A stretch of DNA of 64,000 bases from Sedimentisphaerales bacterium (GTDB lineage: Bacteria; Planctomycetota; Phycisphaerae; Sedimentisphaerales; SM23-30), in NCBI GenBank assembly GCA_963663965.2, contig CAXXFK010000030.1:160001-224000 (forward strand), given 5' to 3'. Below the pieces are notes generated by a model. The model was given only the letters and a program-made list of their open reading frames with translations. It was not told the origin of the DNA and ran no database searches. Shown piece after piece: positions 14,760 to 51,565 of the stretch (positions within the stretch are counted from its first letter, which is position 1; every line of letters starts with the position of its first letter). The translations under genes were made by a program, and so were the position numbers.

Positions 14760-14774
14760 CGTTACACCAATAAG

Positions 14775-15365
14775 TTAAGCAAAAAACATCTTTGCGTTAA
14801 TTGTCACTGTTGGGCGGAATTCTGTTGCTTTCATTCTTTCCAGCGCAATTGAATTCGCGACATATGCCCCATCAATATACTCGACATCGATACTATTGGG
14901 AACAAGAACTTCTGCACATTTTATTGAGGCGTGACGCCAATGAGCAATTTGATCTTCAGGATGGTTCCAGTTTTCTGCAAAAACATCATCAAAATTAATA
15001 TGATGCAGTCCCTGGGGAGATTTATAAAAACGAACATAATTACTGGCGGCATTCTGGTCCGTTAATACAACATCCGGGAGAAGCAGTATCTGTCGATTGA
15101 CTCGCAAAACACAGAGTTGATCCTGACAGGCCTGTCTTTTGTACATCATGGGATTTCTGGCGCAAAAATAGAGATTGGCATATTGATGTAAAGCCAATCC
15201 CCCTGGAACTCTTTTGTTTTTTCGCCGGTCCTGCACATCTGGCAATGAAATATCGGTATGCGCAAGCGTTGATGCTTTTTCGTGTGACAGGATTCCGTAT
15301 TGCATAACCGAAGGAATGTTGCCTATGGGCATAATACAATATAATTCGGTTACCCTATGACTCAT
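14775..15365 (-). CDS. darT: DarT toxin (DUF4433 ssDNA ADP-ribosyltransferase)
   Basis: NIPSVMQYGILS, LHQYANLYFCARNPMMY, TDQNAAS, catalytic AEVLV; directly upstream of darG. Confidence 0.9.
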   Translation of the reverse strand: MSHRVTELYCIMPIGNIPSVMQYGILSHEKASTLAHTDISLPDVQDRRKNKRVPGGLALHQYANLYFCARNPMMYKRQACQDQLCVLRVNRQILLLPDVVLTDQNAASNYVRFYKSPQGLHHINFDDVFAENWNHPEDQIAHWRHASIKCAEVLVPNSIDVEYIDGAYVANSIALERMKATEFRPTVTINAKMFFA

Positions 15366-34997: not shown

Positions 34998-35448
34998 TCA
35001 CATCTCAACGTTATAGCATACCAGTTCAGTAACCGGGGCACTCGCCGGTGAAGATTCAAGATTCGATACACTCAGTATAAAATTTTGAGTGAGATAAAAC
35101 AATAAAAAATTGCCTGGCTTTTGTTGGAGCATGCCAGGGGGAAATGTGTGCAGTTGGGGCGGTATGGGGATGGGAAAAACATTTTTTTGAAAAAATTTTT
35201 ACTGCTTGTTCTGGCGTGGGATAGCGAAACTGGGTGGTGGTCTGGACGGACCGTTTTCGGCGCAATTGCTTCCGGTTGGTAGTAAAGGGTGAGAGGCTGA
35301 TTGATGCGAAAAGGGAAGAAAAAATAGCTCACACAAAGCCGCAAAGCCACGAAGGGAAACAGCCAGGTAGGCTAAAAGGCGAGAAGATAAGAAGGTAAGA
35401 AAAACAATACCAATACAACAGTAAAAAAATTAACACGCATAACTGAGG

Positions 35449-36990
35449 ATGATGGATATGGCATTTGAATTTGGACATTTTCGACGGACGCAGCTGAAGG
35501 GTATGGAGACGCTGGATGAGGATTTTGTGGACTGGCTGGTGCATGACTGGGGTGTTGAGCAGATGCGCCGGTGTGAGTGGCTGCGGGATTATTATCACAA
35601 TGACTTCAGCGCGACGCTGTGGGATCCGGCGGGCGATCTTAACGTTGGCGGGCTGCCTTATCGACAGGCGCAGGAAGCGGGCCTGCCCCGGCGCATTACG
35701 GGTCGGGTATCGGGCGGCGAGAATACCGATCCAAAGAACCGGCGCAAGGAGGTGGTGATCGAAAACGATATCGCCTGGCGAATCGATACGATTGTGGATT
35801 TTCTGTTCGGCAAGCCGTTTCAGATCATTTCGCGCTGTCCGGATCCGAACCGGGCCCAGGCGATGCAGCAGATTATCGAAGCGGTCTTCAGCGCCAACGG
35901 CGGTGCGAGTTATTTTCAGGGGCTGGCGCTGCTGGGCAGTATTTATGGCCTGGTGGATGTGGTGTTACGCTGGGATCGGATCGGGGGTGGAACGGGCAGA
36001 GGAGAGGTGGCAGGACGGCAGGGGCGCGGCGCGAGCGGGCCTGAACAAATTGAAGAAGCGCTGCATGCGGCGCGAAGCATGATACTGGAGGCGATTGAAG
36101 CGCCGCGCTGCCTGCCTGTTCTGAATACCTGCGATTATACCCGGATCGATTATTACATTCAGCATTACTGGCTGGAGCATCCGCACATGAGCGACGGGGC
36201 GTCGTGGCTGGAATCGGAAACGGCGCAGGGGCGGCGGGTGACGCCGCGCCGGGAGACGCATGAAGTGGAGATCCTGGCGCCCCGCTGGTATCAGCGGTAC
36301 CGGGATCGGATCTTGCTGGATGAAGGGCCCAATCCGCTGGGCGTGGTGCCGGTGGTGCATATTCAGAACATGCCGCTGCCGTTGAAGTATGAAGGGCAGA
36401 GCGATGTCGAACCGCTGATCCCGTTGCAGGATGAGTTGAACACCCGGTTGAGTGACCGGGCCAACCGGATCGCGTTGCAGAGTTTCAAGATGTACCTGGG
36501 CAAGGGGATCGACGGTTTTGTGGAGCGGCAAGTCGGGCCAGGCCAGATGTGGAGTACGCTCAATACGCAGGCATCGATCGAGGTTTTTGGCGGTGACAGC
36601 GCCTGCCCCAGCGAGACGGAACATATCGAACAGATCCGGGAAGCGATGGAAAAGGCCAGCGGGGTGGCCTCGGTGGCGGCGGGGATTCTGAAAGGCCGGG
36701 TGGGCAACCTGACCAGCGCGGTGGCGCTTAAGGTGACCTTGATGGGCGTGCTGGCGAAGACCGAACGCAAACGCCAGAGCTATGGCCAGGGTATCAAAGA
36801 GTTGTGCCGGCTGATTCTGCTGGCGATGGATAAGACGGGGGTCTTTCCCAACGACGAATCGGAACGGGAGTTTGATATTCTCTGGCCCGATCCGCTGCCG
36901 GAAAATAAACTGGAGAAGCTACAGGAAGCGAAAATGAAGCTGGAAGTGGGGGTGGGGCCGGACCAGGTCTTGAAAGAGCTGGGTTACTAA
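35449..36990 (+). CDS. Phage portal protein (SPP1 gp6-like)
   Basis: 513 aa; IVDFLFGKP, NPLGVVPVVHIQN, GQSDVEPLIPLQDELN, GNLTSAVALK, W.DPLP. Confidence 0.85.
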   Translation: MMDMAFEFGHFRRTQLKGMETLDEDFVDWLVHDWGVEQMRRCEWLRDYYHNDFSATLWDPAGDLNVGGLPYRQAQEAGLPRRITGRVSGGENTDPKNRRKEVVIENDIAWRIDTIVDFLFGKPFQIISRCPDPNRAQAMQQIIEAVFSANGGASYFQGLALLGSIYGLVDVVLRWDRIGGGTGRGEVAGRQGRGASGPEQIEEALHAARSMILEAIEAPRCLPVLNTCDYTRIDYYIQHYWLEHPHMSDGASWLESETAQGRRVTPRRETHEVEILAPRWYQRYRDRILLDEGPNPLGVVPVVHIQNMPLPLKYEGQSDVEPLIPLQDELNTRLSDRANRIALQSFKMYLGKGIDGFVERQVGPGQMWSTLNTQASIEVFGGDSACPSETEHIEQIREAMEKASGVASVAAGILKGRVGNLTSAVALKVTLMGVLAKTERKRQSYGQGIKELCRLILLAMDKTGVFPNDESEREFDILWPDPLPENKLEKLQEAKMKLEVGVGPDQVLKELGY

Positions 36991-37054
36991 CTGCCAAACT
37001 ATATTAAGGGTATATCGAAATTTTTAACCAGAATTTTATTCAAGGAGGTCCATT

Positions 37055-37495
37055 ATGGATGACATGAAAGACACAGTACAGGAATCGCAACCGGAACCGC
37101 AGGTGAATACGTCGACGCTCGGCGATCAGGTGCGGCAGTTGCAGACGGAGCTGGCCCAGGTGCGGCGGGAGAATGATTTGATTGTGCAGATGGCTCAGCG
37201 CGGGGTAGTGGATATTGAAGCGGCGGCGCTGTTGATCAGCCGCAAGCACGCCGGTGAGGGCGGTGATGACAATATTGACGCGCTGATCGAGCAGTTGCGT
37301 CAGGACCGGCCGTGGCTGTTTGGCCGGAACGATCAAACCGCGCCGGCGATGAACCAGCCGACCGCGGCGGTGCGTTCCGAACGCAATACCGACCGGATCG
37401 AGATGGACAAGGCGGCGCGTCAGGCGCGTCAGAGCGGTCAGCGTCGTGATCTGATCGCGTATCTGAGATTGCGGCGATTGAAGCGCGGGCGTTGA
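37055..37495 (+). CDS. Putative capsid scaffolding protein
   Basis: Coiled-coil, IEQLRQDRPWLF motif, basic C-terminus, located between portal and capsid; AAGGAGG RBS. Confidence 0.65.
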   Translation: MDDMKDTVQESQPEPQVNTSTLGDQVRQLQTELAQVRRENDLIVQMAQRGVVDIEAAALLISRKHAGEGGDDNIDALIEQLRQDRPWLFGRNDQTAPAMNQPTAAVRSERNTDRIEMDKAARQARQSGQRRDLIAYLRLRRLKRGR

Positions 37496-37564
37496 AAACG
37501 AAAAGGCGAATAGGCGAAAAGTCAAAAAGATAAGAAGGCAAAATTTTGAAAGGAAGGATTTACG

Positions 37565-38716
37565 ATGTCATTTACAGGAAAAGCAACCTATAGCGCCGGG
37601 GCGACCCTGGCGGAGCTGGTGGAGGATATTTCGGATTTGATCGGGATTGTCTCTCCGTATGAAACGCCGCTGCTGGATGCGCTGGGCGATCCGCTGCGCG
37701 CGGCCCAGAGCACCTATCACGAATGGCTGGAGGACAGCCTGCTGCCCAACCGTGACGCGATCAGCGACAATACCTACGGCAATCCGGCGACGGATACCAG
37801 TTTTGATGTGGTGAACGGCGACCGGTTCCGGGTGGGCGATCAGATCCAGGTGGAGGGCAGCGGGGAGTTGATGCTGGTGACAGCGATCAGCAGTAATACG
37901 CTGACGGTGACGCGTGGTTATGCCGGGACGACCCAGGAGGCGCTGGCCGATGGCAAGGCCGTTAATATTCTTTGTAACGCGGCGCTGGAAGGCGCGGACA
38001 AGGCTGCCAGCCGGTTTACCAACCGGGCCCGGCATGGCAACTATACGCAGATCTTCACTGCGTCGGTGGAGGTGTCGGGCAGTATGCTGGCGGCGCGTCA
38101 GGTGGGCCTGAGCGATGAGATGGATTATCAGAAGCAGGAGCGGTTGCGGGAACTGCTGCGCGATCTGGAGAATACGGTGATCAATGGCGGCCAGGCTGCC
38201 GGCACTCCGCAGGGTGGACCAACCACGCGGCGCACGATGCGCGGGATAGTTCAGCATATCCAGACCAACGCGTGGGAAGTGGGTGATACCGGGTTGCCGA
38301 GCGGAACCGATCTGGATGAGGCCAAGCTCAGCTATGTCATGCGGCAGATCTGGGAAAACAGCAACGGCCAGATCGATCTGATTGTGGTGAACGGGTCACA
38401 GAAGCGGCGCATCAATGGATTTGTCAGTTCGAGCCGGCGCTATCAGCCGGAAGATCATACCTTCAGCGATATGATCGGAACCTACGAAAGCGATTTTGGC
38501 GTCTGCCGGGTGGTGTTGTCGCGCTGGGTACCGCGTGACGCGGTGCTGCTGCTGGACAGTTCGCGGATTGAGGTTTTGCCGCTGGCGGGGCGGAGTTTCC
38601 ATTTCAAACCGCTGGCCTCGGGCGGCGATTATGAATGCGGTCAGATTATCGGCGAATATACGCTGGAGATGCGCAACGAGGAGGCGCATGGGTGTTTGCG
38701 GGGATTGAGTGTTTAG
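37565..38716 (+). CDS. Major capsid protein (SU10/DUF5309-type, HK97 fold inferred)
   Basis: EDISDLI.IVSP.ETPLL, HEWLEDSL, NYTQIF...V.VSGS, RTMRGI, YESDFG, GQIIGEYTLE; inserted LTVTRGYAGT domain. Confidence 0.85.
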   Translation: MSFTGKATYSAGATLAELVEDISDLIGIVSPYETPLLDALGDPLRAAQSTYHEWLEDSLLPNRDAISDNTYGNPATDTSFDVVNGDRFRVGDQIQVEGSGELMLVTAISSNTLTVTRGYAGTTQEALADGKAVNILCNAALEGADKAASRFTNRARHGNYTQIFTASVEVSGSMLAARQVGLSDEMDYQKQERLRELLRDLENTVINGGQAAGTPQGGPTTRRTMRGIVQHIQTNAWEVGDTGLPSGTDLDEAKLSYVMRQIWENSNGQIDLIVVNGSQKRRINGFVSSSRRYQPEDHTFSDMIGTYESDFGVCRVVLSRWVPRDAVLLLDSSRIEVLPLAGRSFHFKPLASGGDYECGQIIGEYTLEMRNEEAHGCLRGLSV

Positions 38717-38735
38717 TAGGGTTATTGAAGGGGAC

Positions 38736-38770
38736 CGGCGGCCGGGATTGTGTTTCCGGCCGCCTATTTT
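38736..38770 (+). terminator. Hairpin after the capsid gene
   Basis: GGCGGCCGGGA-TTGTGT-TTCCGGCCGCC-TATTTT. Confidence 0.6.
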
Positions 38771-38784
38771 CGAAGGAAACGACG

Positions 38785-39417
38785 ATGGAAATTGCTGGTA
38801 ACGATATTGATTTGTTGATCTGGGAGCCGATGCTGTTTCGTGAATATGGCGCGGCCGGCCAGGTGGTGGTGGAAGGTGACGGCGCGACGATTGACGGGGT
38901 GACACTGACCGATACGGGAGCGGATTTTCAGACGCAGGGTGTGTTGGCGGGTATGGTCGCGCATGTCTGGAACGCTGAGACGAATGCGGATGATTTACTG
39001 GAAGTGGTGGCGGTGGATTCTGAGACGCAACTGACGGTATCGCGGCTGCGGATGAGCCGGGAGGGCGCGCCGGTGAATGCAATGCTTACCGGAACAGGGA
39101 TGGCCTATCGTGTTATCAGCTATCGCCGCCAGATCGAGGAGACCATTCAGCGGCTCAGCCGGATATGCGGTCTGGACCGGAGTGACGGTGAGCTGGTGAA
39201 TAGCGATGTTTTGCGGCAGGTGGTGGCATTGGATACGGTGGTGACGATTCTGATGGGCTGTGGCGAACTGGATAGTTTGATTATGAAGCGGATCGGTAAT
39301 TATCGCAGGCTTTACGAGCAGGCACTGGAGAGTATCTGCCTGATGATCGACCTGGATGGCGATGGCGCGGCTGATATGAACCGTTCGGGCCGGGTGATCC
39401 ATTTGACAAGGGTGTAA
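38785..39417 (+). CDS. Putative head-completion/adaptor protein
   Basis: Directly follows the capsid gene; helical C-half ending DLDGDGAAD; function from position only. Confidence 0.55.
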   Translation: MEIAGNDIDLLIWEPMLFREYGAAGQVVVEGDGATIDGVTLTDTGADFQTQGVLAGMVAHVWNAETNADDLLEVVAVDSETQLTVSRLRMSREGAPVNAMLTGTGMAYRVISYRRQIEETIQRLSRICGLDRSDGELVNSDVLRQVVALDTVVTILMGCGELDSLIMKRIGNYRRLYEQALESICLMIDLDGDGAADMNRSGRVIHLTRV

Positions 39418-39418
39418 G

Positions 39419-39802
39419 ATGAAACGACAGACGATTACATTTAATGGGCAACGTTTTTTTGAACGGGGCAGACACCGAATGGTCGCCGGTTCGCCCGAAC
39501 GGCGCACGATGGATCAGACGGCGGCCGGGGTGGATGGTGTGCTGGGTGTCGACCTGGGTGGTTGCGGGCGAACGCTGACGCAGGATGGTGTGCTGGTTGC
39601 GGTTGATAACGAGGCGCTGGCCGATCTGGTTACCCGGATCGAGAGTTATATCGATGGACTGGCTTATCGTCTGATCGATGAACGCGGGGTAGTTTATGAC
39701 AATGTCCGGTTGGTGCGGTTTGACGCGCAACCGGCGGTATCGAGCGGGCGGCTGGTTTGCTGTCGGTATCGGATCGAATATCGGCAATTATCGGTGGAGT
39801 AA
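39419..39802 (+). CDS. Putative virion structural protein
   Basis: 127 aa beta-rich, tightly coupled in the operon. Confidence 0.55.
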   Translation: MKRQTITFNGQRFFERGRHRMVAGSPERRTMDQTAAGVDGVLGVDLGGCGRTLTQDGVLVAVDNEALADLVTRIESYIDGLAYRLIDERGVVYDNVRLVRFDAQPAVSSGRLVCCRYRIEYRQLSVE

Positions 39803-39805
39803 AAC

Positions 39806-40510
39806 ATGACAGGTAATCGAATCATAGGATTATGGGCGGAACCGGTAGTAATGGGGACCGGGCCGGGCGACCGGCCGGTTTTTGTGCCGGGCGTGATCTG
39901 GCTACGGTGGGAGAGTGTGGCGGATGGCATGGTCCGGATTTTTATTAACGGGCAGTTCTCGGCCAGTTCCGATTTGCCTCAACAGCGCGAATTGATGGCG
40001 GCCTGGGACAGCAGTAAGACCGCAATTATTGAAGCGGTGATAGAGGGTGAGAATCCGCTGGATTTGAATCGGGCAGGGCTGTTGGCGGAAATCGGTTGGC
40101 TGAAAAAAGATACCATGCCGTTGGATACGCTCGTGCAAATCGTTAACGATGATACGGATGAGGTGGTGTATGAAGGGCCGCTCTGGAATGGCGTATGGGA
40201 ACAGTGGGGTTTTGGATGTGGCGGGTTTGGTGAAGAGGGATTTAGTTATGACGGTGGTAACGCGCCGGGTATGGCTGGAGGGGCGTTTGGTTTGGGCAGG
40301 TTTGGTTTTGACTGGATTCGGCGGTGTGTGATTCAGCCGGCCGGATCCGGTCTGAGCCGGTATCAGGTGCGTTATGAGGATGGCGAGCATCAACTGGTAG
40401 AGGAACAGCCGGTTGCGTGTTATGGCGATCCGGTATCGAAGTCGTACCGGTTGGAATGGCGCCGCTATGATGTGGATAATGATTGTGTGTATTTAACGAT
40501 TGAATTTTGA
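39806..40510 (+). CDS. Hypothetical structural protein with GFG-rich segment
   Basis: WGFGCGGFGEEGFSYDG...GAFGLGRFGFD; GGAG RBS. Confidence 0.6.
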   Translation: MTGNRIIGLWAEPVVMGTGPGDRPVFVPGVIWLRWESVADGMVRIFINGQFSASSDLPQQRELMAAWDSSKTAIIEAVIEGENPLDLNRAGLLAEIGWLKKDTMPLDTLVQIVNDDTDEVVYEGPLWNGVWEQWGFGCGGFGEEGFSYDGGNAPGMAGGAFGLGRFGFDWIRRCVIQPAGSGLSRYQVRYEDGEHQLVEEQPVACYGDPVSKSYRLEWRRYDVDNDCVYLTIEF

Positions 40511-40521
40511 GGAGGTTTCAC

Positions 40522-41322
40522 ATGGCTGAGTTGTATCCCAATGATGATCTGTTGCTGGCGCTGGCGCAGGATGAAGGAACGGGCGTGGATTATATCGAGA
40601 CGGGCCGGACGCCTTATTACCTGGAGTTTCGGCGGATGCTTTATCGTCTGCTGGATACGGCGCGGCGGGCGGGCGATTTGCGCGTGTATGCCGATGGCGA
40701 TCTGTCGATTGGCGTGAAGCCCGGCGCGTTCTGGGACGGTGCGGTGTTGCGGGATTATGGCGGCTGTGACCAGTCACCGCTGGTTGATGATCGGGCGGCG
40801 ATCTATGTCTATCTGAACCGTGATGGTGGACTGGTTACGGATGAGTATACCGGTTTTCCGGAGCCGGATGTGCTGCATATTCGACTGGCCCGGATTGAGA
40901 CGAGTGGCGGTAAGATCGCGGCGATAGTGGACTGCCGTGGTCAGCAGTTGTGGAATCAGCCGGTTTCGGGCGCGCATTGTGTGGGGTGTGGTGTGAACGG
41001 GACGCCGATGATCCTGTTTCATGTTGCTGTGGAAAATGGCGCGACAGTGAATCTTCATGCCGGTGACGCGCCGTATGGATATCGGATTATCGATGCCTGG
41101 TCGATTGCTCGCGGTACGGCCAGCGGATCGTGGCAGTTGCAGACCGGGGTGAATCCGGTGAGTGATCTGGTTAGTCTGCCCACACAGAGCGGGGGTTTAA
41201 GCCGGGCAGGATTGATCGATCCGGTTTATGCCGAAATCAGCCTGGGCGGCTCGCTGGCGGTGGTGGGCGACGGCGCCAATGCGCATGTGGATGTCTATAT
41301 CGCCGCGGTCAGGATGGTGTGA
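40522..41322 (+). CDS. Putative tail/fibre-associated protein
   Basis: GAGGAGG RBS; IYVYL...G.L....GFP....HIRLA resembles fibre-anchor segments. Confidence 0.55.
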   Translation: MAELYPNDDLLLALAQDEGTGVDYIETGRTPYYLEFRRMLYRLLDTARRAGDLRVYADGDLSIGVKPGAFWDGAVLRDYGGCDQSPLVDDRAAIYVYLNRDGGLVTDEYTGFPEPDVLHIRLARIETSGGKIAAIVDCRGQQLWNQPVSGAHCVGCGVNGTPMILFHVAVENGATVNLHAGDAPYGYRIIDAWSIARGTASGSWQLQTGVNPVSDLVSLPTQSGGLSRAGLIDPVYAEISLGGSLAVVGDGANAHVDVYIAAVRMV

Positions 41323-41323
41323 T

Positions 41324-42610
41324 ATGATTACGATAACAGGAACCAACAGCGGCCAGCCGTGGACCTGGCAAAGCTGGTACGCGGCGAATCCAGCCGGTAT
41401 TAGCGAAGTGGTGCCCGGCGCGGTGTATGGTATTCACGATCAGGTGACGTTTGGCGATGGCGTGACTGCGACCGTGTTTCAATCGTGCAATGAGATGGTC
41501 TGGTTCGATGACGGCATGACTTTCAATCTGACCGAGCAGGCTACTTTGGCTCTGGGTGAACTGGCCGGGGACTGGGGGATTAATGGTTCGTTCTGGTCGC
41601 TGGGGCCGGCGGCATCGTGGCTGCTGATGGCGTATCTGGATACTTCGGTTTTTAATGTTTACGCCAGCCGGTTGCATATCCGCACGAATAACCGGACCCA
41701 GTTTTACGGCGGGCAGATTACTATTTTGAATTCGGTGTTGTCATCGATATTCCATGAAGGCGGGATCAACGACCGGGCCGGCTTCTATTTTTACAGTCCG
41801 TGTGAGTCTCTGGTGTTGCGCAAGGTACGGATTGAGAATGCCCTGGTGTTGAGTCTCAGTCTGACTCCGGACAGTTTCGAACAGATCCACTGTCACCGCT
41901 GTTATAACGGCGTGGCGGCCAATAGCGCTGATGTGACGGTTCAGGGTGTCGAGCTGACCAGTTGCGATGTGGAACTGATTCAGACGGGACTGGCGGCCTG
42001 TTTGGAGGTCGATAATCCTCAAACCCCGATCCAGACGGTTGCCATTGGATCGAACGACCCCGCGGCCAGGGTTGTTGAACTTTTTGACTGTCTGATTGAG
42101 GCCCGGGATGAATCTGGCGCGGCGGTCGCGTCCGCCCTGGTAACTTTGCGGCAAAGCCATGTGGTTGCTTATGACAGTACGGTTTATCGTTGTCGGGTAT
42201 CGCATACGAGCGATACGTTTTATGCCGATCTGGCGGCGGGTTACTGGGTAGTTGATAGCGAGATCGAAAATGCTCCGCCCTGGCGCGCGGCTATGGCGTA
42301 TGTGGCGGATCAATACGATGGCGGGATATTCAATGGCGCATCCGGGTTGCTTACCAATGGAGAGGGTCTGGCGCTCTGGAACGATCAAACCCCGCGGATA
42401 CCTGCCCGGCGATGGACCACGACCAGTGAATGGCAGGAACGCTGGGTTTATACTCTGACAATAGCCAAGGCGGGCTATGAATCTTTGGCGATTTCCAGTA
42501 TCGATTTTGATCGGCCGCGCCGCTGGCGTATTCCGTTGAGTTGCTATCGACCGCGCGCGTTACCGTGTGGACCCAGTGTGGGATCGGCCGTATCGGGCGC
42601 GTTTGTCTGA
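41324..42610 (+). CDS. Putative tail spike/receptor-binding protein
   Basis: Beta-helix-like core and CBM5/12-like segment YDSTVYRCRVSHTS....DLAAGYW. Confidence 0.5.
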   Translation: MITITGTNSGQPWTWQSWYAANPAGISEVVPGAVYGIHDQVTFGDGVTATVFQSCNEMVWFDDGMTFNLTEQATLALGELAGDWGINGSFWSLGPAASWLLMAYLDTSVFNVYASRLHIRTNNRTQFYGGQITILNSVLSSIFHEGGINDRAGFYFYSPCESLVLRKVRIENALVLSLSLTPDSFEQIHCHRCYNGVAANSADVTVQGVELTSCDVELIQTGLAACLEVDNPQTPIQTVAIGSNDPAARVVELFDCLIEARDESGAAVASALVTLRQSHVVAYDSTVYRCRVSHTSDTFYADLAAGYWVVDSEIENAPPWRAAMAYVADQYDGGIFNGASGLLTNGEGLALWNDQTPRIPARRWTTTSEWQERWVYTLTIAKAGYESLAISSIDFDRPRRWRIPLSCYRPRALPCGPSVGSAVSGAFV

Positions 42611-42635
42611 GGATTATCCGGAAGGAGGTTTTACC

Positions 42636-43061
42636 ATGTTTTATTATGTCTATTTTCAACACAACGGCCAGCCTTATCCCGCTCTCACGCCGCAATGGTT
42701 GAGTTTGTATACTGCCGGTCAGGGGCTGAACAAGCTGGCCCTGGCTCCGACTATTGAAGAGATTGGCGGCGGCTGGTACCGGTTCGATATCCGTTATGGC
42801 TACGCGCCCTGGGATCTTACCGGTGAAGACCTGGTCGGGGTGATCGATGGCGGCGAGGTTTTGGAAACCGCCGAACGGTATAAGCCGGTGGTGTTATCAT
42901 TGCGCGGACTGGGACTGGCGCGGATCGCCCATCGCGGCGTTCAGGATAAACAAAACGGGCAGGTAACGATTTATGCCCCGGACGGGGTAACGCCGGAACT
43001 GAAGTTGGCTATGACGGAAACGGTCGATCAGATTGAACGGGCGCCAACGCGGGGGGATTAG
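42636..43061 (+). CDS. Hypothetical protein in phage-like operon
   Basis: AAGGAGG RBS; EIGGGWYRF motif. Confidence 0.6.
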   Translation: MFYYVYFQHNGQPYPALTPQWLSLYTAGQGLNKLALAPTIEEIGGGWYRFDIRYGYAPWDLTGEDLVGVIDGGEVLETAERYKPVVLSLRGLGLARIAHRGVQDKQNGQVTIYAPDGVTPELKLAMTETVDQIERAPTRGD

Positions 43062-43063
43062 CG

Positions 43064-43441
43064 ATGGACAAGCGGTTTTACGGCTCATTATTGGAAGGGG
43101 ATTTTTCTTCGAGGTTATCGTTGGCGATGGGTCTGGTGGAGGGGGATTTCTGGCCGAGAAGCCGGGATGTGAGTGTGTTGTATCGGGGGCTGGACAGCGT
43201 TGATCGGATCGATCTGGAACGGCCGGTTGCTGTTCTGGAAGGTGAGGGCGAGTTGGCGCTGCCGGATTGGCTGGAACATCCGGTGGGGCGTGATGTGTGG
43301 TATCTGCTGCGCCGGGTGAGTGTGACGGGCAGGCAGGAAAATAATACGGTGTCTGTAGTGGGTGTAAGGCGTGATTCCGATGGTGTGATCCGGCCTTTGA
43401 CGCGTGGCGTGATTTCAACGAGGGAGGATGGACATGGATAG
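43064..43441 (+). CDS. Hypothetical protein in phage-like operon
   Basis: 125 aa, coupled to both neighbours. Confidence 0.55.
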   Translation: MDKRFYGSLLEGDFSSRLSLAMGLVEGDFWPRSRDVSVLYRGLDSVDRIDLERPVAVLEGEGELALPDWLEHPVGRDVWYLLRRVSVTGRQENNTVSVVGVRRDSDGVIRPLTRGVISTREDGHG

Positions 43442-45173
43442 CCATGTTGTGACAGTCGATCCGCAACTGATTCCAGAAGCGAGTTGTGTGCGGGTATTGC
43501 CATTGTCGATTATGCTCGAGGGCCGGGAGGAAAGCCGGTTGAAGGTTATTAAGATCGAGCATGGGTCCGGTGTGGACGGCCGCCGGCTGCTGATGCGGTC
43601 GTGGCGGCCGGGGGATCATACGGCGCTGATGGGCGAATGTTATTCCGGACGTAAAGTGACTGTCTGGACACCTGTGACACAAGGGGGGAGGGCAAATGTC
43701 TGGCGGCGGCGGATTCTATTTGCCGGCCTGGTGGAATCGTGTCAGGTTATCCGCGGGAAGACTGCGACCTGTCTTGAAGTTATTGCCAGGGATTCGCTGC
43801 CTTCGGCATCTGCTACATGGATTGATTCATTCTGGGTCAATGATAATTATCAACCGCTGACGATCAAGAGCGGTCAGGTCGTCTTTAATCCGGAGGGTCT
43901 GCCAAACCGGACGGAGGGACGATATAAGCTTAAAGGGCATTCGGTGTATCTGTTTGAAGCTTTGGCTGAAAATGGCCGGTTGTGGACAGCCGGTGACGCG
44001 ATTGAATATTTATTGGCCCAGGTTGATGAAGCAATCGAGGTCTGTGGGCTGGAGTCTTTGAGAGAATCTCAGTATTGTTTGAACGCTCTTGAAGTAGCAG
44101 GATTAACCGTGATGCAGGCGATAGAGAAAATTGTCGAGGGGGCAGGCCGGTATTTTGTCTTGGATCGATGTCCGGTTGGTAATTGTATGACAGCGGTGAT
44201 GCGATTTACGGAGAATAGCACAGGGCGGCTGGTTCCCATTGCTGCCGGTTCGGCGGTCCGGTTGGATAGAACCCACTTTCGTTATCCCGTTTCAAATGGA
44301 GAAGCGAGATTACAGGTTATCGCAACCGGTGGGCTAAAACGCTATGAAAGCACGTTTGAGTTGATGCCCGGCTGGGACCGGTCGCTGGAAAGTCCGGATT
44401 ATGAATGCTATTCAGCCGCGACCAGTCCGGATTTTATCGCGGTGAAAGATGTGTTTCGCAAATGGGTGTTGAATGAAACCGGGCGCTACAGTCAGCCGCC
44501 TTTTGATAGCGGACCTCGCGCTGATCTGAGCGGCCTGTTCGAAGGGGATGCTTATACTATCTGTTCGCGGCGGTTTCTGCCGTGCATCAGCCGGGTAGAG
44601 AATGCATCTGCCGGGGTAACATTAAAAGGGGGCTATTATGTGGAGGTGTCTTATAACGGTGGCTATCGCTGGCTGCCTTATGATGGGGCCTGTCATATCC
44701 TGACGGATGAATGCGGGATTTATCTCAGTCATGGCCAGTTTGACCTGACGATGTGGATTGCCATCTGCAAAGATGTGCTGCGGATGCGTATCACCGCGTC
44801 TGTGGAAAGTGATACGCCTTTAAGAGAAGTGGTGACGATCCGGCCGGGAGTTGGATTTCAGAAAGCCCGGATGGCAACCTGTGATGCGGGTGACCGCTAT
44901 CGCTATTGGAAGGTAGCGCCCGGCAGCCGGTTTTATCGGGGTGTCAACAGTGCCGGGCAGTATGACGATGGCGCGGCATTGCGCCGGTATGCCTGGCAAT
45001 ATGGTAAAAGGTTGTTTGCCCAGGTTGAACCGGCACGTATCACGATACCCTGGCCGCGAATGGATATCCGGCCGGGCGATCAAATTGTCTGGCATGACGG
45101 TGAACGTAGTGGACAGGTTGAAAAGGTTGTGCTGGATTATAGTAACTGGCAGACAGAACTCTGGATTATTTGA
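43428..45173 (+). CDS. Large putative tail hub/baseplate-like protein
   Basis: 581 aa; ILFAGLVE, LEVIARD and terminal DIRPGDQI...VEKV patterns resemble tail-hub proteins. Confidence 0.5.
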   Translation: MDMDSHVVTVDPQLIPEASCVRVLPLSIMLEGREESRLKVIKIEHGSGVDGRRLLMRSWRPGDHTALMGECYSGRKVTVWTPVTQGGRANVWRRRILFAGLVESCQVIRGKTATCLEVIARDSLPSASATWIDSFWVNDNYQPLTIKSGQVVFNPEGLPNRTEGRYKLKGHSVYLFEALAENGRLWTAGDAIEYLLAQVDEAIEVCGLESLRESQYCLNALEVAGLTVMQAIEKIVEGAGRYFVLDRCPVGNCMTAVMRFTENSTGRLVPIAAGSAVRLDRTHFRYPVSNGEARLQVIATGGLKRYESTFELMPGWDRSLESPDYECYSAATSPDFIAVKDVFRKWVLNETGRYSQPPFDSGPRADLSGLFEGDAYTICSRRFLPCISRVENASAGVTLKGGYYVEVSYNGGYRWLPYDGACHILTDECGIYLSHGQFDLTMWIAICKDVLRMRITASVESDTPLREVVTIRPGVGFQKARMATCDAGDRYRYWKVAPGSRFYRGVNSAGQYDDGAALRRYAWQYGKRLFAQVEPARITIPWPRMDIRPGDQIVWHDGERSGQVEKVVLDYSNWQTELWII

Positions 45174-45186
45174 CAGGGAGAACGCG

Positions 45187-45471
45187 ATGAACACAATCAA
45201 TGAACATCTGGATCGACTGGTTTTGGAGCCAGGGCCGCCAGTTCCGGCGTGGACGGCGCGTGTTGCCGGTTGGTTGGAATACAATCGTTATGAACTGGAA
45301 CTGACCGAAATCGTTGCGGCCGGTCAGTCGCCTTTGCCGCTGCCGGGGCGGATATCGGCGTATAATCTGGCTGAGCCATTTCAGACCGCCGGAACGCTGG
45401 CAATCGGAACCAATGTGATCGTCTGGCGGGCGGGGTCGGTTTATGTCTTCAATGTGTCAGCCAATGTTTAG
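45187..45471 (+). CDS. Small hypothetical protein, last gene of the phage-like operon
   Basis: GGGAG RBS; 94 aa; AYNLAE...G.L..GT.V.V. Confidence 0.6.
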   Translation: MNTINEHLDRLVLEPGPPVPAWTARVAGWLEYNRYELELTEIVAAGQSPLPLPGRISAYNLAEPFQTAGTLAIGTNVIVWRAGSVYVFNVSANV

Positions 45472-48146: not shown

Positions 48147-48710
48147 ATATCCGCCGCCTGGCTGGGGCACGATCCCAACGATCCAGCGTGGCAGGCCGAC
48201 CCGAACCTGGTTAATCCAAACGCTGCGGCTATATGGAAATCAGTCTGCAATCTGGATGCCACCGGAGGTAGTCAGTATGCCATTGACATACCTGATTTGA
48301 CGGCGTTCTGTGATGAATGGCTGTGGCAGGCCTGCTGGCGCGAGAACTATCTGGCGTATACCAGCGCTATGGCAGGCGGCGGCGAGATGATGGCCATGAC
48401 CGTCCCCATGTTCGAAACGTTGTCAACCATTCTGATCGCCGAAGCCGATGCGTATGTCCCGGTTAATCCCTATGTCGATCTGTCCCGCGCTGAACTGGCC
48501 CGGCTGGCTATCAATGCCTCTGAAATCATAGGTTATATCGAAGCGGAATTAGAGAATGAACCCGATAATGCCGAGGCGTTAATTGAGGGTCTGGAATTCC
48601 TGCGATCGATTTTATCGGACATTCGTGAAGTGTTACAGTCCCATCTTGACATGAAGCCTCGCGATTTGATACAATCGGATGAACAAAGTTTAAGGAGAAC
48701 CGGATTATGA
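48147..48710 (+). pseudogene. Headless C-terminal (dockerin-like plus acidic helical) fragment, repeat unit 1
   Basis: ISAAWLGHDPNDP...CNLDATGGSQYAID..DL..FCDEWLW; the frame upstream hits a stop at 48099 with no start codon. Confidence 0.65.
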
Positions 48711-49321
48711 AAAGATTATGGTTTATTCTGTTGGGTGTCTGTTTGATGATAACGGCAGTAAAAGCAAGTTATCTGGATGGTTATATTACCACTGGCGAAT
48801 ATGAATACACAGTGAGATGGTCTGGCTACGATCCCCCTTTGATTGTCGATGGGGGGGGGGGGGATAGTTTTGAAATAGACAATGGCTTGTTGGAGGTCTG
48901 GTCCACTTCTCAACCCGTTGATAATAATCATGGTATTTATGATATTATCTTGTCCCACAATAGTACACTGTTGTTTCTCGATGGTGCCCTTGATCTGTTA
49001 TCCACTTATCACAATGCTATGGCAGTTTTTAAAGGCGGTCAGATCAATATGATCCGCTGTATGCAACTGGTTGAAGGTACGCCGCATATCACGATTGAAT
49101 GCCGTCCCGGCTGGAACTGGATCTATGACAATCAGAGCGCCATTAAGGGTGTTGCCGGCCTGTGGGCGGATGATTCGGTTTTTTCCATCCAGTTCATCGA
49201 TAAAACCGACCGCGGTTACGATCCGGTCTGGCAAAATATCAAGATTGTGGAAGTGCCCGAACCAACCACTTTGAGTTTATTAGCCCTGGGTGGATTCTGG
49301 TTAAAACGGCGGCCCTGTTAA
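48707..49321 (+). CDS. PEP-CTERM surface protein, copy 1 (G13 tract, in frame)
   Basis: Signal peptide, VPEPTTLSLLALGGFWLKRR; AAGGAG RBS. Confidence 0.9.
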   Translation: MKRLWFILLGVCLMITAVKASYLDGYITTGEYEYTVRWSGYDPPLIVDGGGGDSFEIDNGLLEVWSTSQPVDNNHGIYDIILSHNSTLLFLDGALDLLSTYHNAMAVFKGGQINMIRCMQLVEGTPHITIECRPGWNWIYDNQSAIKGVAGLWADDSVFSIQFIDKTDRGYDPVWQNIKIVEVPEPTTLSLLALGGFWLKRRPC

Positions 49322-49340
49322 GGTAAATACATCGCACATC

Positions 49341-49383
49341 AAAACCTCCGGATGGTTATCTATCCGGAGGTTTTTCCTTTTTT
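49341..49383 (+). terminator. Intrinsic terminator (repeated at 50384-50425)
   Basis: AAAACCTCCGGAT...ATCCGGAGGTTTTT. Confidence 0.8.
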
Positions 49384-49400
49384 GTGCGAAGAGCGGCTAA

Positions 49401-49752
49401 TTATAGTTCTATGGCAGGCGGCGGCGAGATGATGGCCATGACCGTCCCCATGTTCGAAACGTTGTCAACCAGCCTGATCACCGAAGCCGATGCGTATGCC
49501 CCGGTCAATCCCTATGCCGATCTGTCCCGCGCCGAACTGGCCCGGTTGGCCGTCAACGCCTATGAAATCATGGGCTATATCGAAGCGGAATTAGCAAACG
49601 AATCCGATAACGCCGAGGCGTTAATTGAGGGTTTGGAATTCCTGCGATCGATTTTATCGGACATACGCGAGGTGTTGCAGTCCCATCTTGACATGAGACC
49701 CCGTGATTTGATACAATCGGGTGAGCAAAGTATAAGGAGAACCGGATTATGA
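49401..49752 (+). pseudogene. Headless C-terminal fragment, repeat unit 2 (shorter)
   Basis: Near-identical to units 1 and 3 from YSSMAGGGE onward. Confidence 0.65.
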
Positions 49753-50364
49753 AAAGATTATGGTTGATTCTGTTGGGGATCTGTTTGTTTGTAACAACGA
49801 GTAATGCTGGCTATCTGGATGGCTATATTACCGCCGGCGAATATGAATATGGTGTCAGGTGGTCTGGTTACGATCCCCCTTTGATTGTCGATGGGGGGGG
49901 GGGGGGATACCATTGAAATAGACTATGGACGATTAGAGGTTTGGTCCACTTCTCAACCCGTTGATAATAATCATGGGATTCTTGATATTTCTTTATCACA
50001 TGACAGTTCATTGTTGTTTTTGGGTGGCGCTTTAGATTTGTTGTCGACTAGTCATAATTCTACAGCAATCTTTAAAGGCGGTCAGATCAATATGATCCGT
50101 TGTATGCAACTGGTTGAAGGTACGCCGCATATCACGATTGAATGTCAGCCCGGTTGGAACTGGATCTATGACAATCAGAGCGCCATTAAGGGCATCGCCG
50201 GTCTGTGGGCGGATGATACCGCCTTTTCCATCCAGTTCATCGATAAAACCGACCGCGGTTACGATCCGGTCTGGCAAAATATTAAGATTGTGGAAGTGCC
50301 CGAACCTGCCACTTTGAGTTTATTAGCCTTGGGTGGATTCTGGTTAAAACGGCGGACCTGTTAA
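49749..50364 (+). pseudogene. PEP-CTERM surface protein, copy 2, frameshifted in a G14 tract
   Basis: ATG 49749 to TAA 50364 is 616 nt versus 615 for copy 1; extra G in run 49893-49906; otherwise intact. Confidence 0.85.
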
Positions 50365-50447
50365 GGTAAATACATCACACCTCAAAACCTCCGGATGGTT
50401 ATCTATTCGGAGGTTTTTCCTTTTTGTGCGAAGAGCGGCTAAGTATC

Positions 50448-50945
50448 ATGCGTGACGCCGCGGCCATCTGGAAATCGGCCTGTAACCTGGATGCCACCGG
50501 CGCCAGTCAGTATGCCATCGATACGGTCGATTTGGCGGCCTTTTGTGATGAATGGCTGTGGCAGGCCTGCTGGCGCGAAAATTACCTGGCTTATTATAGT
50601 TCTATGGCAGGCGGCGGCGAGATGATGGCCATGACCGTCCCCATGTTCGAAACGCTGTCAACCAGTCTGATCACTGAAGCCGATGCGTATGTCCCGGTCA
50701 ATCCCTATGCTGATCTGTCCCGTGCCGAGTTAACCCGGCTGGCTATCAATGCCTCTGAAATAATGGGCTATATCGAAACGGAATTAGAAAATGAAACGGA
50801 TAACGCTGAGGCCCTGGTCGAAGGGTTGGAATTCCTGCAATCGATTTTATCGGACATTCGCGAGGTTTTGCAGTCCCATCTTGACATGAAGCCTCGCGAT
50901 TTGATACAATCAGATGAACAAGGCATAAGGAGAACCGGATTATGA
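50448..50945 (+). pseudogene. C-terminal fragment, repeat unit 3
   Basis: DAAAIWKSACNLDATG...; possible ATG at 50448 with a weak RBS. Confidence 0.6.
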
Positions 50946-51565
50946 AAAGATTATGGTTAATTTTATTGGGTATATGTTTATTTGTAACAACGAGCAATGC
51001 CAGCTATCTGGATGGCTTTATCTCGGCAGGTGAATATATTAATACCGTAAAATGGACAAGTTATGATCCTCCCTTGATTGTTAATGGGGGGGGGGGTAAC
51101 AGTATCGAAATTGATTATGGTCGCATAGAGGTTTGGTCCACTTCGTTGCCACTGGAACAGCATGTGTCGGGAATATTTGACTTGGGCTTATCGCATAGTA
51201 GCTCGCTTATTTTTTATGATGGCGCCTTGGAGTTGTTATCAACGCACCATAATGCTACAGCGCTTTTTAAGGGCGGTCAGGTTAATATGATTCGTTGCTT
51301 TCAATTAGTTGAGGGCACGCCGCACATCACGATTGAATGTCAGCCCGGCTGGAACTGGATCTATGACAATCAGAGCGCCATTAAGGGCATCGCCGGTCTG
51401 TGGGCGGATGATACAGCCTTTTCCATCCAGTTCATCGACAAAGTCGATATCTTTGGCTTCGACCCGGTTTGGCAAAATATCAAGATTGTGGAAGTGCCCG
51501 AACCAACCAGCCTGCTCTTACTGGGCCTCGGCGCGCTGGCCATCAAACGCCAACGGCGTTTGTGA
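50942..51565 (+). CDS. PEP-CTERM surface protein, copy 3 (G11 tract, in frame)
   Basis: Signal peptide, VPEPTSLLLLGLGALAIKRQRR. Confidence 0.9.
   Translation: MKRLWLILLGICLFVTTSNASYLDGFISAGEYINTVKWTSYDPPLIVNGGGGNSIEIDYGRIEVWSTSLPLEQHVSGIFDLGLSHSSSLIFYDGALELLSTHHNATALFKGGQVNMIRCFQLVEGTPHITIECQPGWNWIYDNQSAIKGIAGLWADDTAFSIQFIDKVDIFGFDPVWQNIKIVEVPEPTSLLLLGLGALAIKRQRRL

What the first reader, a model, noticed from the sequence alone, without database searches (positions are those of the whole stretch)
35449..45471. Intact, self-contained phage head/tail operon with no phage life-cycle genes: candidate domesticated GTA-like particle
Seen: 12 co-oriented, tightly coupled, apparently intact ORFs, most with clear RBSs: portal, scaffold, SU10/DUF5309-type capsid, a hairpin, then 9 putative neck/tail/spike genes. 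They span only ~10 kb between ordinary host genes (DUF5658-like membrane protein, MBL hydrolase), and GC content looks host-like by eye. I find no terminase, integrase, repressor, replication, tape-measure or lysis gene, no att repeats and no pseudogene debris. Known: gene transfer agents and tailocins are phage structural modules retained as host operons, often with packaging and regulator genes elsewhere. Inference: a vertically inherited virion-like particle (GTA or portal-bearing nanocompartment) of Phycisphaerae-like bacteria, of a type I do not know to be described.
Basis: partly seen in the sequence, partly recalled or inferred. Interest (0 to 1): 0.88.

Follow-up and report, generated by a model that had tools for sequence, protein, structure and literature searches.

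The report
Domesticated phage particle genes, Phycisphaerae
These twelve genes are the head-and-tail half of an ancient phage-derived particle kit that Phycisphaerae bacteria inherit with their chromosome and keep intact, which makes it a candidate new gene-transfer-agent-like system not found in print.

Summary
The 12 co-oriented ORFs exist as described. Pfam confirms portal, scaffold and SU10-type capsid; g11 folds as a gp27/VgrG-type baseplate hub; g04 looks neck-like (tentative). It is not a decaying prophage. The capsid gene is single-copy and intact in 88 of 149 good genomes sampled from the class. The cluster is syntenic across at least 8 families. Capsid, portal and terminase distances track MutS distances (Mantel r 0.71-0.85), and dN/dS is mostly 0.07-0.31.

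"No terminase" holds only for the window. A divergent large terminase lies about 72 kb upstream on the same contig. It co-occurs with the capsid (86 both, 4 capsid only, 8 terminase only, 53 neither), and in relatives it sits in a conserved control-and-packaging module.

Corrections: the locus is not self-contained; its GC is 56.6% against 48.6% for the genome; this genome's copy lacks several genes that relatives keep. Many lineages have lost the tail genes but kept head and packaging genes. Two complete phages each carry a lone captured copy of the host capsid gene.

No particle, packaged DNA or expression data exist. Earlier notes of this scan describe the same system on other genomes. My literature searches found no description.

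The parts
35368..35398 (+). 31-nt A/G-rich motif upstream of the portal gene, repeated upstream of the capsid gene; candidate shared promoter or regulator site (inference)
   Evidence: family D1: copies at 35368-35398, 37503-37533 and 37511-37541 with 74-84% identity; sequences read; a relaxed form of the motif found only one other match in the genome
35449..36990 (+). portal protein (513 aa)
   Evidence: PF05133 SPP1_portal E 5.4e-23; phrog_64 E 5e-27; orthologue in 40 of 41 loci
37055..37495 (+). scaffolding protein (146 aa)
   Evidence: PF06810 E 1.5e-5, below cut-off; phrog_2303 E 1.7e-4; lies between portal and capsid; orthologue in 33 of 41 loci
37503..37541 (+). two overlapping copies of the upstream motif, in front of the capsid gene
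37565..38716 (+). major capsid protein, SU10/DUF5309 type (383 aa)
   Evidence: PF17236 E 3.2e-88; phrog_1328 E 6e-79; single copy in the genome; present in 41 of 41 loci
38737..38764 (+). terminator-like hairpin (11-bp stem, 9 GC pairs, then a T-run) between capsid and g04; probable attenuator setting the capsid excess (inference)
   Evidence: 35 of 40 related loci fold at -25 kcal/mol or lower in the 90 nt after the capsid stop (no shuffled control run)
38785..39417 (+). g04, about 210 aa; neck/head-tail adaptor-like helices with an inserted beta-barrel (tentative)
   Evidence: AF2 pLDDT 91.7; VIA-align Z 5.1-6.3 to the neck/connector proteins of phages Mu, 812, P74-26, JBD30 and Bxb1, Z 7.9 for the barrel alone; no Foldseek PDB match at E<=0.001; orthologue in 35 of 41 loci, always next to the capsid gene
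39419..39802 (+). g05, 127 aa, unknown
   Evidence: no family; orthologue in 18 of 41 loci
39806..40510 (+). g06, 234 aa, unknown; possible C-terminal Ig-like domain
   Evidence: weak Big_13 hits in 4 of 9 orthologues, E 0.016-0.18; orthologue in 15 of 41 loci; protein atlas gave no usable hit
40507..41322 (+). g07, 271 aa; N-terminal part resembles a phage long tail fibre (weak)
   Evidence: profile A3 against PDB: 8kec_A 'Long tail fiber', E 1.3e-4, profile positions 54-142; orthologue in 16 of 41 loci
41324..42610 (+). g08, 428 aa; hypervariable slot, probable receptor-binding protein (inference from relatives)
   Evidence: no orthologue detected in any locus; the same slot in relatives holds Beta_helix proteins (5 of 6 tested, 2 over the cut-off) or a Laminin_G_3 protein; the window's own g08 has no Pfam hit
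42636..43061 (+). g09, about 141 aa, unknown
   Evidence: orthologue in 8 of 41 loci; no family
43064..43441 (+). g10, 125 aa; N-terminal half only, compared with orthologues of about 230 aa
   Evidence: the g10 profile matches only this ORF in the genome
43428..45173 (+). g11, 581 aa; baseplate hub / central spike protein (gp27 / Mu gp44 / VgrG fold)
   Evidence: AF2 pLDDT 78.7; Foldseek PDB gave 54 matches at E<=0.001, top hits the AlgoCIS and Anabaena CIS hubs, VgrG1, Mu gp44 and T4 gp27; orthologue in 17 of 41 loci
45187..45471 (+). g12, about 94 aa, unknown; follows the hub gene in relatives too
   Evidence: tblastn to the c12 family, E down to 2e-18; c12 present in 10 loci

Best explanation
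The window holds the structural half (head, neck and tail tip) of an ancient phage-derived particle system. Phycisphaerae inherit it vertically and keep it under selection.

Proposed mechanism. Steps 1-3 rest on homology. Steps 4-6 are inferred.
1. Portal, scaffold and SU10-type capsid protein build a procapsid.
2. A divergent large terminase pumps DNA through the portal. It is encoded about 72 kb away. In relatives it sits in a module with a CI-like repressor, a tandem sigma-70-region-4 activator, two ABC-type ATPase-like proteins, a ParB-like protein and a candidate small terminase.
3. g04 closes the neck. g05 to g12 add a short tail tip, built on a gp27/VgrG-type hub (g11) and a fast-evolving receptor-binding protein (g08).
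4. The hairpin after the capsid gene attenuates read-through, so capsid protein is made in excess.
5. The genes lie on at least 83 kb of chromosome and include no replication or integration functions, so a particle could not carry its own kit unless its head held more than 83 kb of DNA. It would carry host DNA instead.
6. The system therefore most likely works like a gene transfer agent.
For: Distribution.
- The capsid gene is found in 32 of 41 relatives across 8 families of the order, single-copy and full-length, at 60-75% identity.
- It is found in 88 of 149 good genomes sampled from the class. Whole families are positive (16/16, 12/12, 19/21, 7/7, 5/5) or negative (0/9, 0/7, 0/4).

Synteny.
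- Gene order is conserved in f1, f2, f4, f6, f7, f9, f15 and f21, while the flanking host genes differ.

Vertical descent.
- Mantel correlation with MutS distances: capsid r 0.71 (n 30), portal 0.84 (n 26), TerL 0.85 (n 15), each with 0 of 2000 permutations as high.
- Mean capsid distance (0.39) is below that of MutS (0.47).
- Family labels need 13 changes on the capsid tree against a minimum of 12; the shuffled mean is 28.5.
- Cluster GC follows host GC from 42 to 71%.

Selection.
- dN/dS is 0.065-0.31 for head, tail and envelope genes in five pairs with unsaturated dS.
- dN/dS is 0.09-0.24 for the packaging module in two close pairs.

Terminase.
- G000 C30:122206-123675 encodes a 489-aa protein matching phrog_2 at E 3e-12.
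- Its G151 orthologue passes the Pfam Terminase_6C cut-off.
- Across 151 genomes it co-occurs with the capsid: 86 both, 4 capsid only, 8 TerL only, 53 neither.
- It lies next to the portal gene in f14 and f16.
- In metagenomic phages with a related capsid, TerL and capsid are both related to the host genes and lie in one operon.

Other.
- Hub fold of g11.
- Cluster GC exceeds its flanks in 34 of 38 loci (mean +3.1 points), as reported for RcGTA regions (PMC7360931, passages read).
- The nearest isolated phages reach only 30% (capsid) and 27% (TerL) identity.
Against: - There is no evidence of expression, particles, packaged DNA or transfer.
- No endolysin or holin was recognised in either locus.
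- No tail tube, sheath or tape-measure protein was recognised, so the tail architecture is unknown.
- This genome's copy looks reduced. It lacks c7 and c4, the envelope genes that relatives keep at the end of the cluster. Its g10 is half-length. The ParB-like and TerS-like genes next to TerL are missing, and two cytochrome genes are inserted there.
- Many lineages (f8, part of f1, f5, part of f6) keep only portal, scaffold, capsid, g04, c7 and c4. In 4 of 5 such genomes a hub profile found nothing. Tail-mediated delivery therefore cannot be the universally selected function.
- One more distant pair gave dN/dS of 0.26-0.48. One packaging-module pair gave 0.32-0.76.
- Some genomes hold only fragments of the capsid gene, or a TerL with a stop codon: G124, G158, G109, G135.
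Confidence: 0.6

Rival explanations
1. It is a domesticated phage-interference system rather than a gene-transfer device. After DNA damage or infection the CI-like switch turns on host capsids and terminase. These package or cut DNA indiscriminately, including phage DNA, and lower the phage yield, much as capsid-forming satellites do. Tails would be optional.
For: - Two complete phage genomes with terminal repeats and their own terminase and portal genes (one also with its own capsid gene of another family) each carry a lone copy of the host-type capsid gene among early replication and recombination genes.
- The two copies nest separately inside host clades: one is sister to an f9 host (98-99% SH-aLRT support), the other lies among f1 hosts.
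- One copy still has 27 codons of the host scaffold gene upstream of it. This fits capture of the host gene as a decoy or poison subunit.
- Head and packaging genes persist where tail genes are lost.
- A repressor with an S24 peptidase domain sits beside the packaging module in 10 of 23 loci.
Against: - There are only two phage cases among 108 viral-contig relatives.
- No known defence family was tested or matched; PADLOC was not searched.
- Long-form lineages keep eight or more tail genes under purifying selection, and interference would not need them.
- The purpose of the phage copies is pure inference.
Confidence: 0.2
2. It is a cryptic prophage remnant decaying neutrally after losing its life-cycle genes.
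For: - There is no integrase, replication or lysis gene in the window.
- This genome's copy lacks several genes that relatives have.
- Some genomes hold pseudogenised copies.
Against: - The genes are intact, single-copy and syntenic across a class.
- dN/dS is far below 1.
- The capsid protein diverges more slowly than MutS.
- An unlinked TerL is co-retained.
Confidence: 0.07
3. It is an active temperate phage or satellite that is widespread because it infects many Phycisphaerae.
For: - IMG/VR lists one host-type cluster as a viral contig (L232).
- A CI-like repressor and a late-activator-like gene are present.
Against: - There is no integrase, att site or tRNA.
- The loci are split by 4 kb to 690 kb.
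- Distances track MutS and GC tracks each host.
- There is one copy per genome.
- L232 carries the ordinary host gene order.
Confidence: 0.03
4. It is a portal-bearing protein nanocompartment that packages no DNA.
For: The window itself has no terminase.
Against: - A terminase with intact ATPase and nuclease parts is co-conserved and under purifying selection.
- No cargo-like gene was seen.
Confidence: 0.03

Closest known systems
RcGTA-type gene transfer agents of Alphaproteobacteria (Rhodobacter capsulatus, Caulobacter crescentus)
   Same: - A phage-derived head-tail cluster fixed in the chromosome.
- Vertical inheritance over a class-level clade, with purifying selection.
- Genes spread over several loci.
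- GC above the host average (PMC7360931, passages read).
- No integrase or replication genes.
   Different: - A different ancestral phage: the capsid is SU10/DUF5309-type, not a Phage_capsid family hit.
- TerL is usually unlinked from the head genes.
- No prohead protease, tape measure or tube was recognised.
- A CI-like repressor and a sigma-r4 activator sit beside the packaging genes.
- Tail genes have been lost repeatedly.
- Particle production and DNA transfer are unproven here.
Other experimentally known GTAs: BaGTA (Bartonella), VSH-1 (Brachyspira), Dd1 (Desulfovibrio), VTA (Methanococcus voltae); list taken from PMC11841831 (passages read)
   Same: They are independent domestications of tailed phages in separate lineages. 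This would be one more.
   Different: None is from Planctomycetota. Sequence relation to these was not tested here. Each of them has particle or transfer data, which this system lacks.
Capsid-forming phage satellites (cf-PICI type; properties recalled, not checked in a call)
   Same: - They encode their own capsid, portal and connector genes but lack a full phage life cycle.
- They are in conflict with phages.
   Different: - Satellites are mobile, carry an integrase and are patchily distributed. This element has no integrase, is vertically inherited and has its own TerL.
- Many copies also have tail-tip genes.
Phage SU10 and other phages with PF17236-type capsids
   Same: - The capsid family is shared.
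- The portal, scaffold, capsid gene order is shared.
- Metagenomic phages with 37-45% identical capsids also have a TerL related to the host's, at 25-31% identity.
   Different: - Isolated phages reach at most 30% capsid identity.
- Those phages are complete viruses with TerL next to the head genes.

Membership tests
Gene transfer agent / viriform (functional class) | Particle genes of phage origin encoded in the host chromosome | tested here: met
   Portal, scaffold, capsid, hub fold and TerL, all between host genes
Gene transfer agent / viriform (functional class) | Inherited vertically with the host and kept by purifying selection | tested here: met
   descent; dN/dS
Gene transfer agent / viriform (functional class) | Cannot transmit itself: particles hold less DNA than the encoding genes span | tested here: inconclusive
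   The genes span at least 83 kb in G000 (C30:122206-205471), and 167 kb and 690 kb in G138 and G037. No replication or integration genes were seen. Head capacity is unknown.
Gene transfer agent / viriform (functional class) | Packages essentially random host DNA | not testable with these tools
   Needs sequencing of DNase-protected particle DNA
Gene transfer agent / viriform (functional class) | Delivers DNA to recipient cells | not testable with these tools
   Needs a marker-transfer assay. Tail genes are missing in many lineages.
Gene transfer agent / viriform (functional class) | Particles are released, usually through lysis genes | tested here: inconclusive
   No endolysin or holin family was found. 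In relatives, c7 (membrane helix plus coiled coil) and c4 (lipoprotein signal plus C-terminal membrane helix) look spanin-like by eye. Both are missing in G000.
RcGTA family (homology) | Head-tail genes homologous to RcGTA g2-g15, including an HK97-type capsid and a prohead protease | tested here: not met
   The capsid matches PF17236 SU10_MCP only. No protease or RcGTA-type family appeared in the Pfam scans.
Functional temperate prophage | Integrase, att sites, replication and lysis modules contiguous with the structural genes | tested here: not met
   none in the 40 related loci either
Tailocin / contractile injection system | Tail or sheath-tube particle without capsid, portal or terminase | tested here: not met
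   Capsid, portal and TerL are present. No sheath or tube family was found.
Encapsulin-type nanocompartment | HK97-fold shell without a portal or terminase, with a cargo protein | tested here: not met
   Portal and TerL are co-conserved

The most novel reading that the evidence does not exclude
The unit under selection is the DNA-packaging head (terminase, portal, scaffold, capsid, neck protein and two envelope proteins), not a complete virion. Tails have been lost several times while this core stays under purifying selection. Phages that infect these bacteria have twice captured the host capsid gene and express it among their early genes.

This suggests a host-owned capsid-and-terminase machine that is in direct conflict with phages: a domesticated 'defensive capsid' that sequesters or chops DNA, which phages counter with decoy subunits. 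Alternatively, it may export DNA-filled tail-less capsids as a new route of DNA exchange. Neither mode is among the known uses of domesticated phage particles.
Probability: 0.2. Interest if true: 0.92.

Novelty: new variant of a known kind. Interest (0 to 1): 0.8.

Why it matters
Per the 2024 review I read in passages (PMC11841831), experimentally shown gene transfer agents come from only a few lineages: Alphaproteobacteria (RcGTA-like and Bartonella's), Brachyspira, Desulfovibrio and Methanococcus. That review asks whether more exist.

Here a class of Planctomycetota, with relatives of the capsid gene in at least 548 stretches of species-representative genomes, carries an independently domesticated particle kit. 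The kit is as conserved as a DNA-repair gene. By their record titles and earlier scan notes, some carriers appear to be isolates or complete genomes, so the hypothesis may be directly testable.

Three features could show what selection actually keeps in such systems:
- natural 'tail-less' variants;
- a phage-like repressor-and-activator switch;
- capsid gene copies captured by phages.

These bear on whether the selected function is gene exchange, defence or something else.

Tried and rejected
- **Generic terminase models on the own genome.** PF03237, PF17289, PF03354, PF04466 and PF20441 found nothing, and phrog_2 gave only four weak hits elsewhere. All missed the real, divergent TerL. I found it only by following a weak hit in G151. 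Those negative results therefore cannot be read as absence.
- **Pfam TerL families in cluster-bearing genomes.** They are patchy: 8 of 26 and 3 of 26 genomes. Apart from the two weak G037/G151 hits that led to the real TerL, I read these as probable unrelated prophages.
- **Profiles against PDB sequences.** g11 and g04 gave no match at E<=1.
- **Foldseek PDB for g04.** Nothing at E<=0.001. BFVD gave only partial matches to tail-fibre domains.
- **Protein atlas for g06.** No usable hit.
- **Relaxed Pfam scan** of 62 orthologues of g05, g06, g09, g10, g12, c7 and c4 at E<=0.5. Nothing was consistent except weak Ig-like hits in g06.
- **Expression.** No RNA holder was listed among the sequencing runs. 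I laid no reads.
- **att sites.** I found none.
- **Missing genes in G000.** HMM searches of the G000 ORFs for c7, c4, TerS-like and ParB-like proteins gave only weak or unrelated hits: c7 at E 0.005 on C20; TerS-like at E 9e-5 on C22; ParB-like only on the ORF that tblastn matched to the long, chromosomal-type ParB homologue.
- **Not run.** A careful IQ-TREE search did not finish, so the quick tree stands in its place. The AU test on the two phage copies was not run. PADLOC was not searched.
- **Literature.** Six full-text searches found no description of a Planctomycetota or Phycisphaerae GTA or of this cluster. The Namib preprint they returned concerns alphaproteobacterial GTAs only (passages read). 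Subscription journals are not covered.

Full report
**What is in the window**

Twelve + strand ORFs run from 35449 to 45471, separated by gaps of 1-69 nt or small overlaps. Pfam and PHROGs identify three of them:
- portal: PF05133, E 5e-23;
- scaffold: PF06810, E 1.5e-5, below the curated cut-off;
- SU10/DUF5309-type major capsid protein: PF17236, E 3e-88.

The other nine match no Pfam or PHROG family. An 11-bp G+C-rich hairpin followed by a T-run lies between the capsid gene and g04 (38737-38764). A 31-nt A/G-rich motif occurs both upstream of the portal gene and upstream of the capsid gene.

The flanks are host genes: an FGE-sulfatase-domain protein, a 142-aa ORF with no family, an MBL-fold hydrolase, and a tyrosine recombinase that scores as the XerD equivalog (334.8 bits against a cut-off of 329.6). 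The window has no tRNA and no exact flanking repeats.

The cluster is 56.6% GC against 48.6% for the genome, the top percentile of 10-kb windows.

**Where else it occurs**

The window is contig C30:160001-224000 of a 7.24-Mb genome in 42 contigs, 94.6% complete and 5.4% contaminated. Record titles of the nearest relatives name Phycisphaerae, Sedimentisphaerales and Anaerohalosphaeraceae.

The capsid gene is single-copy in this genome. Its wider distribution:
- 32 of 41 relatives in 8 families of the order, full-length, 60-75% identical;
- 90 of 151 genomes sampled from the class, or 88 of 149 good ones, with whole families positive or negative;
- 12 of 231 genomes sampled from the rest of the phylum, six of them in one family (f67) at 51-55% identity;

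A few genomes hold only fragments of the gene, or pieces with stop codons: G017, G124, G158, G109, G054, G150, G162.

**Synteny**

I fetched up to 20 kb around the capsid gene in 40 genomes. I chose these for long contigs or complete assemblies, so they are not a random sample. I then clustered their ORFs. Counts include the window:

| Gene | Loci with an orthologue (of 41) |
|---|---|
| capsid | 41 |
| portal | 40 (the missing one is cut by a contig end) |
| g04 | 35 |
| scaffold | 33 |
| g05 | 18 |
| g11 | 17 |
| g07 | 16 |
| g06 | 15 |
| g10 | 12 |
| g09 | 8 |

The full gene order is: portal, scaffold, capsid, g04, g05, g06, g07, a variable gene, g09, g10, g11, g12, c7, c4. It is found in families f1, f2, f4, f6, f7, f9, f15 and f21.

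- The variable slot (g08 in the window) holds right-handed beta-helix proteins in 5 of 6 relatives tested, or a Laminin_G_3 protein.
- c7 is about 90 aa, with a membrane helix and a coiled coil. c4 is about 195 aa, with a lipoprotein signal and a C-terminal membrane helix. Both were read by eye. They close the cluster in 17 and 19 loci.
- Flanking host genes are not conserved between families. They are conserved within f67 (argS) and f15 (a sigma-54 activator).

A short form (portal, scaffold, capsid, g04, c7, c4) occurs in f8, f5 and parts of f1 and f6. A profile of the hub g11 found nothing in 4 of 5 such genomes. The one hit, in G004, lies 16 kb from a separate Terminase_6N gene and about 208 kb from the capsid gene.

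**The missing terminase**

Five generic terminase models and phrog_2 found no convincing TerL in the own genome. A weak Terminase_6N hit in G151, 9 kb from its short cluster, led to a 482-aa ORF that passes the Terminase_6C cut-off.

Its orthologue in G000 is 40% identical (E 8e-111) and lies at C30:122206-123675 on the - strand. That is about 72 kb upstream of the portal gene on the same contig, outside the window. It matches phrog_2 at 3e-12 and phrog_5653 at 2e-8.

In the same 151-genome class sample this TerL is found in 94 genomes. Set against the capsid hits, the split is 86 both, 4 capsid only, 8 TerL only and 53 neither. I tallied this by hand from the two listings. The E-value thresholds differ (1e-3 and 1e-10), and related genomes are not independent.

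Distance from the capsid gene varies. TerL is adjacent to the portal gene in f14 and f16, about 9-37 kb away in many genomes, 167 kb away in G138 and 690 kb away in G037.

Around TerL, 23 loci share a module. In order:
- a divergently transcribed HTH_3 plus Peptidase_S24 repressor (10 loci);
- a small protein with two sigma-70 region-4 / antiterminator-Q-like HTH parts (15 loci);
- two ABC-ATPase-like proteins, the second with weak GNAT hits (19 loci);
- a ParB_N protein;
- a protein of about 145 aa that may be the small terminase;
- TerL.

In G000 the ParB-like and 145-aa genes are not found, and two cytochrome genes are inserted in the module.

Metagenomic phages whose capsids are 37-45% identical to the host type also carry a TerL 25-31% identical to the host TerL, about 4-6 kb upstream of the capsid gene. 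Both host loci therefore plausibly derive from one ancestral phage.

**Vertical descent and selection**

- Pairwise protein distances correlate with those of the host marker MutS: capsid r 0.71 (30 genomes), portal 0.84 (26), TerL 0.85 (15), each with 0 of 2000 permutations as high.
- The capsid diverges less than MutS: mean p-distance 0.39 against 0.47.
- On a quick maximum-likelihood capsid tree, 13 family labels need 13 changes. The minimum is 12 and the shuffled mean is 28.5, with 0 of 200 shuffles as low. The careful search did not finish.
- dN/dS (NG86) in pairs with unsaturated dS is 0.065-0.31 for all head, tail and envelope genes. It is 0.09-0.24 for the packaging module.
- Two more distant pairs gave higher values: 0.26-0.48 and 0.32-0.76. 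The second of these involves G047, which has TerL but no capsid hit.
- Cluster GC follows each host from 42 to 71%, but exceeds its flanks in 34 of 38 loci (mean +3.1 points). This is the same direction as reported for RcGTA regions (PMC7360931, passages read).

**What the unknown genes look like**

- **g11.** The AlphaFold model has pLDDT 78.7 and pTM 0.53. Foldseek returns 54 PDB matches at E<=0.001: contractile-injection-system hubs, VgrG, Mu gp44, T4 gp27 and siphophage tail tips. TM-scores of 0.2-0.6 point to similarity at the level of domains.
- **g04.** The model has pLDDT 91.7 and no Foldseek PDB match. VIA-align places its terminal helices on phage neck and connector proteins at Z 5.1-6.3, and its inserted barrel on tail-fibre domains at Z 7.9. 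The tool itself warns that such Z values may be unspecific.
- **g07.** The profile touches a 'long tail fiber' chain, 8kec_A, at E 1.3e-4.
- No tube, sheath, tape-measure, protease, endolysin or holin was recognised.

**Phages that carry the host capsid gene**

Two IMG/VR genomes have direct terminal repeats: G415 (62.5 kb, rated 100% complete) and G416 (41 kb, rated 56% complete).
- Both have their own terminase and portal genes. G416 also has its own capsid gene, of another family (phrog_334).
- Each carries a lone SU10-type capsid gene, 64-66% identical to the window's. The genes lie among DnaB, replication-initiator, RuvC, RecT, exonuclease and methyltransferase genes.
- One copy is sister to the capsid of an f9 host (80% identity, 98-99% SH-aLRT support). 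The other lies among f1 hosts (76% identity). A fully supported branch separates the two.
- The first copy keeps 27 codons of the host scaffold gene just upstream of it.

This points to two separate captures, from host to phage. No other element gene is present in these phages except distant beta-helix and fibre similarities. Among 108 viral-contig relatives found with a capsid profile, the only contigs with a capsid above 60% identity were these two phages and one misfiled host contig, L232.

**Reading**

The evidence rules out a decaying prophage or an active phage for the family as a whole. It supports an ancient domesticated particle system with DNA packaging retained.

A GTA-like function is the most economical reading, but it rests on analogy. 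Repeated tail loss and the phage-borne capsid copies leave room for a role in conflict with phages.

The copy in this genome is intact in its 12 ORFs but lacks several accessory genes that relatives keep.

**Prior notes and literature**

After finishing the analyses above, I found five earlier notes of this scan that describe the same system on other genomes. They agree with my results but are not independent evidence.

Six full-text searches found no published description.

Noticed in passing
viral loci L053 (5970-7124) and L054 (7023-8183); whole genomes in L084-L088: Two complete phages with terminal repeats each carry a lone host-type capsid gene among early replication and recombination genes. 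One keeps a 27-codon remnant of the host scaffold gene upstream of it. They look like independent captures from different host families.
   Followed up: partly
G000 contig C30:122206-131764 (outside the window; locus L173 7206-16764): Control-and-packaging module: CI-like HTH plus S24 repressor, tandem sigma-r4 HTH protein, two ABC-ATPase-like proteins and a divergent TerL. In this genome two c-type cytochrome genes are inserted, and the ParB-like and TerS-like genes are missing.
   Followed up: partly
window 13647-15365 (- strand): A DarT (ssDNA thymidine ADP-ribosyltransferase) gene next to a Macro-domain gene, which looks like a DarTG toxin-antitoxin or defence pair.
   Followed up: no
window 3128-4581: A carboxylesterase split into two adjacent ORFs (profile positions 4-242 and 276-445). 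This could be a frameshift or a pseudogene.
   Followed up: no
window 48297-51565: A run of small + strand genes, three of them with PEP-CTERM sorting signals.
   Followed up: no
window 61129-61704: An IS200-like Y1 transposase.
   Followed up: no
loci L025-L027 (family f67, another class of the phylum): The same portal and capsid genes next to argS in all three genomes, followed by a different tail set (proteins of about 435, 375 and 900-1280 aa). This may be a sister domestication or a tail swap.
   Followed up: no
TerL hits of family f10 (G065, G072, G085, G092, G120, G146): TerL aligns in three pieces inside one open frame of 590-700 aa without stops, so these orthologues carry two insertions of unknown nature.
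   Followed up: no
G047 (locus L191): A complete genome that has the full packaging module but no capsid hit. Its module gave higher dN/dS against G156 (0.32-0.76), possibly relaxed selection after loss of the head genes. dS is near saturation.
   Followed up: no
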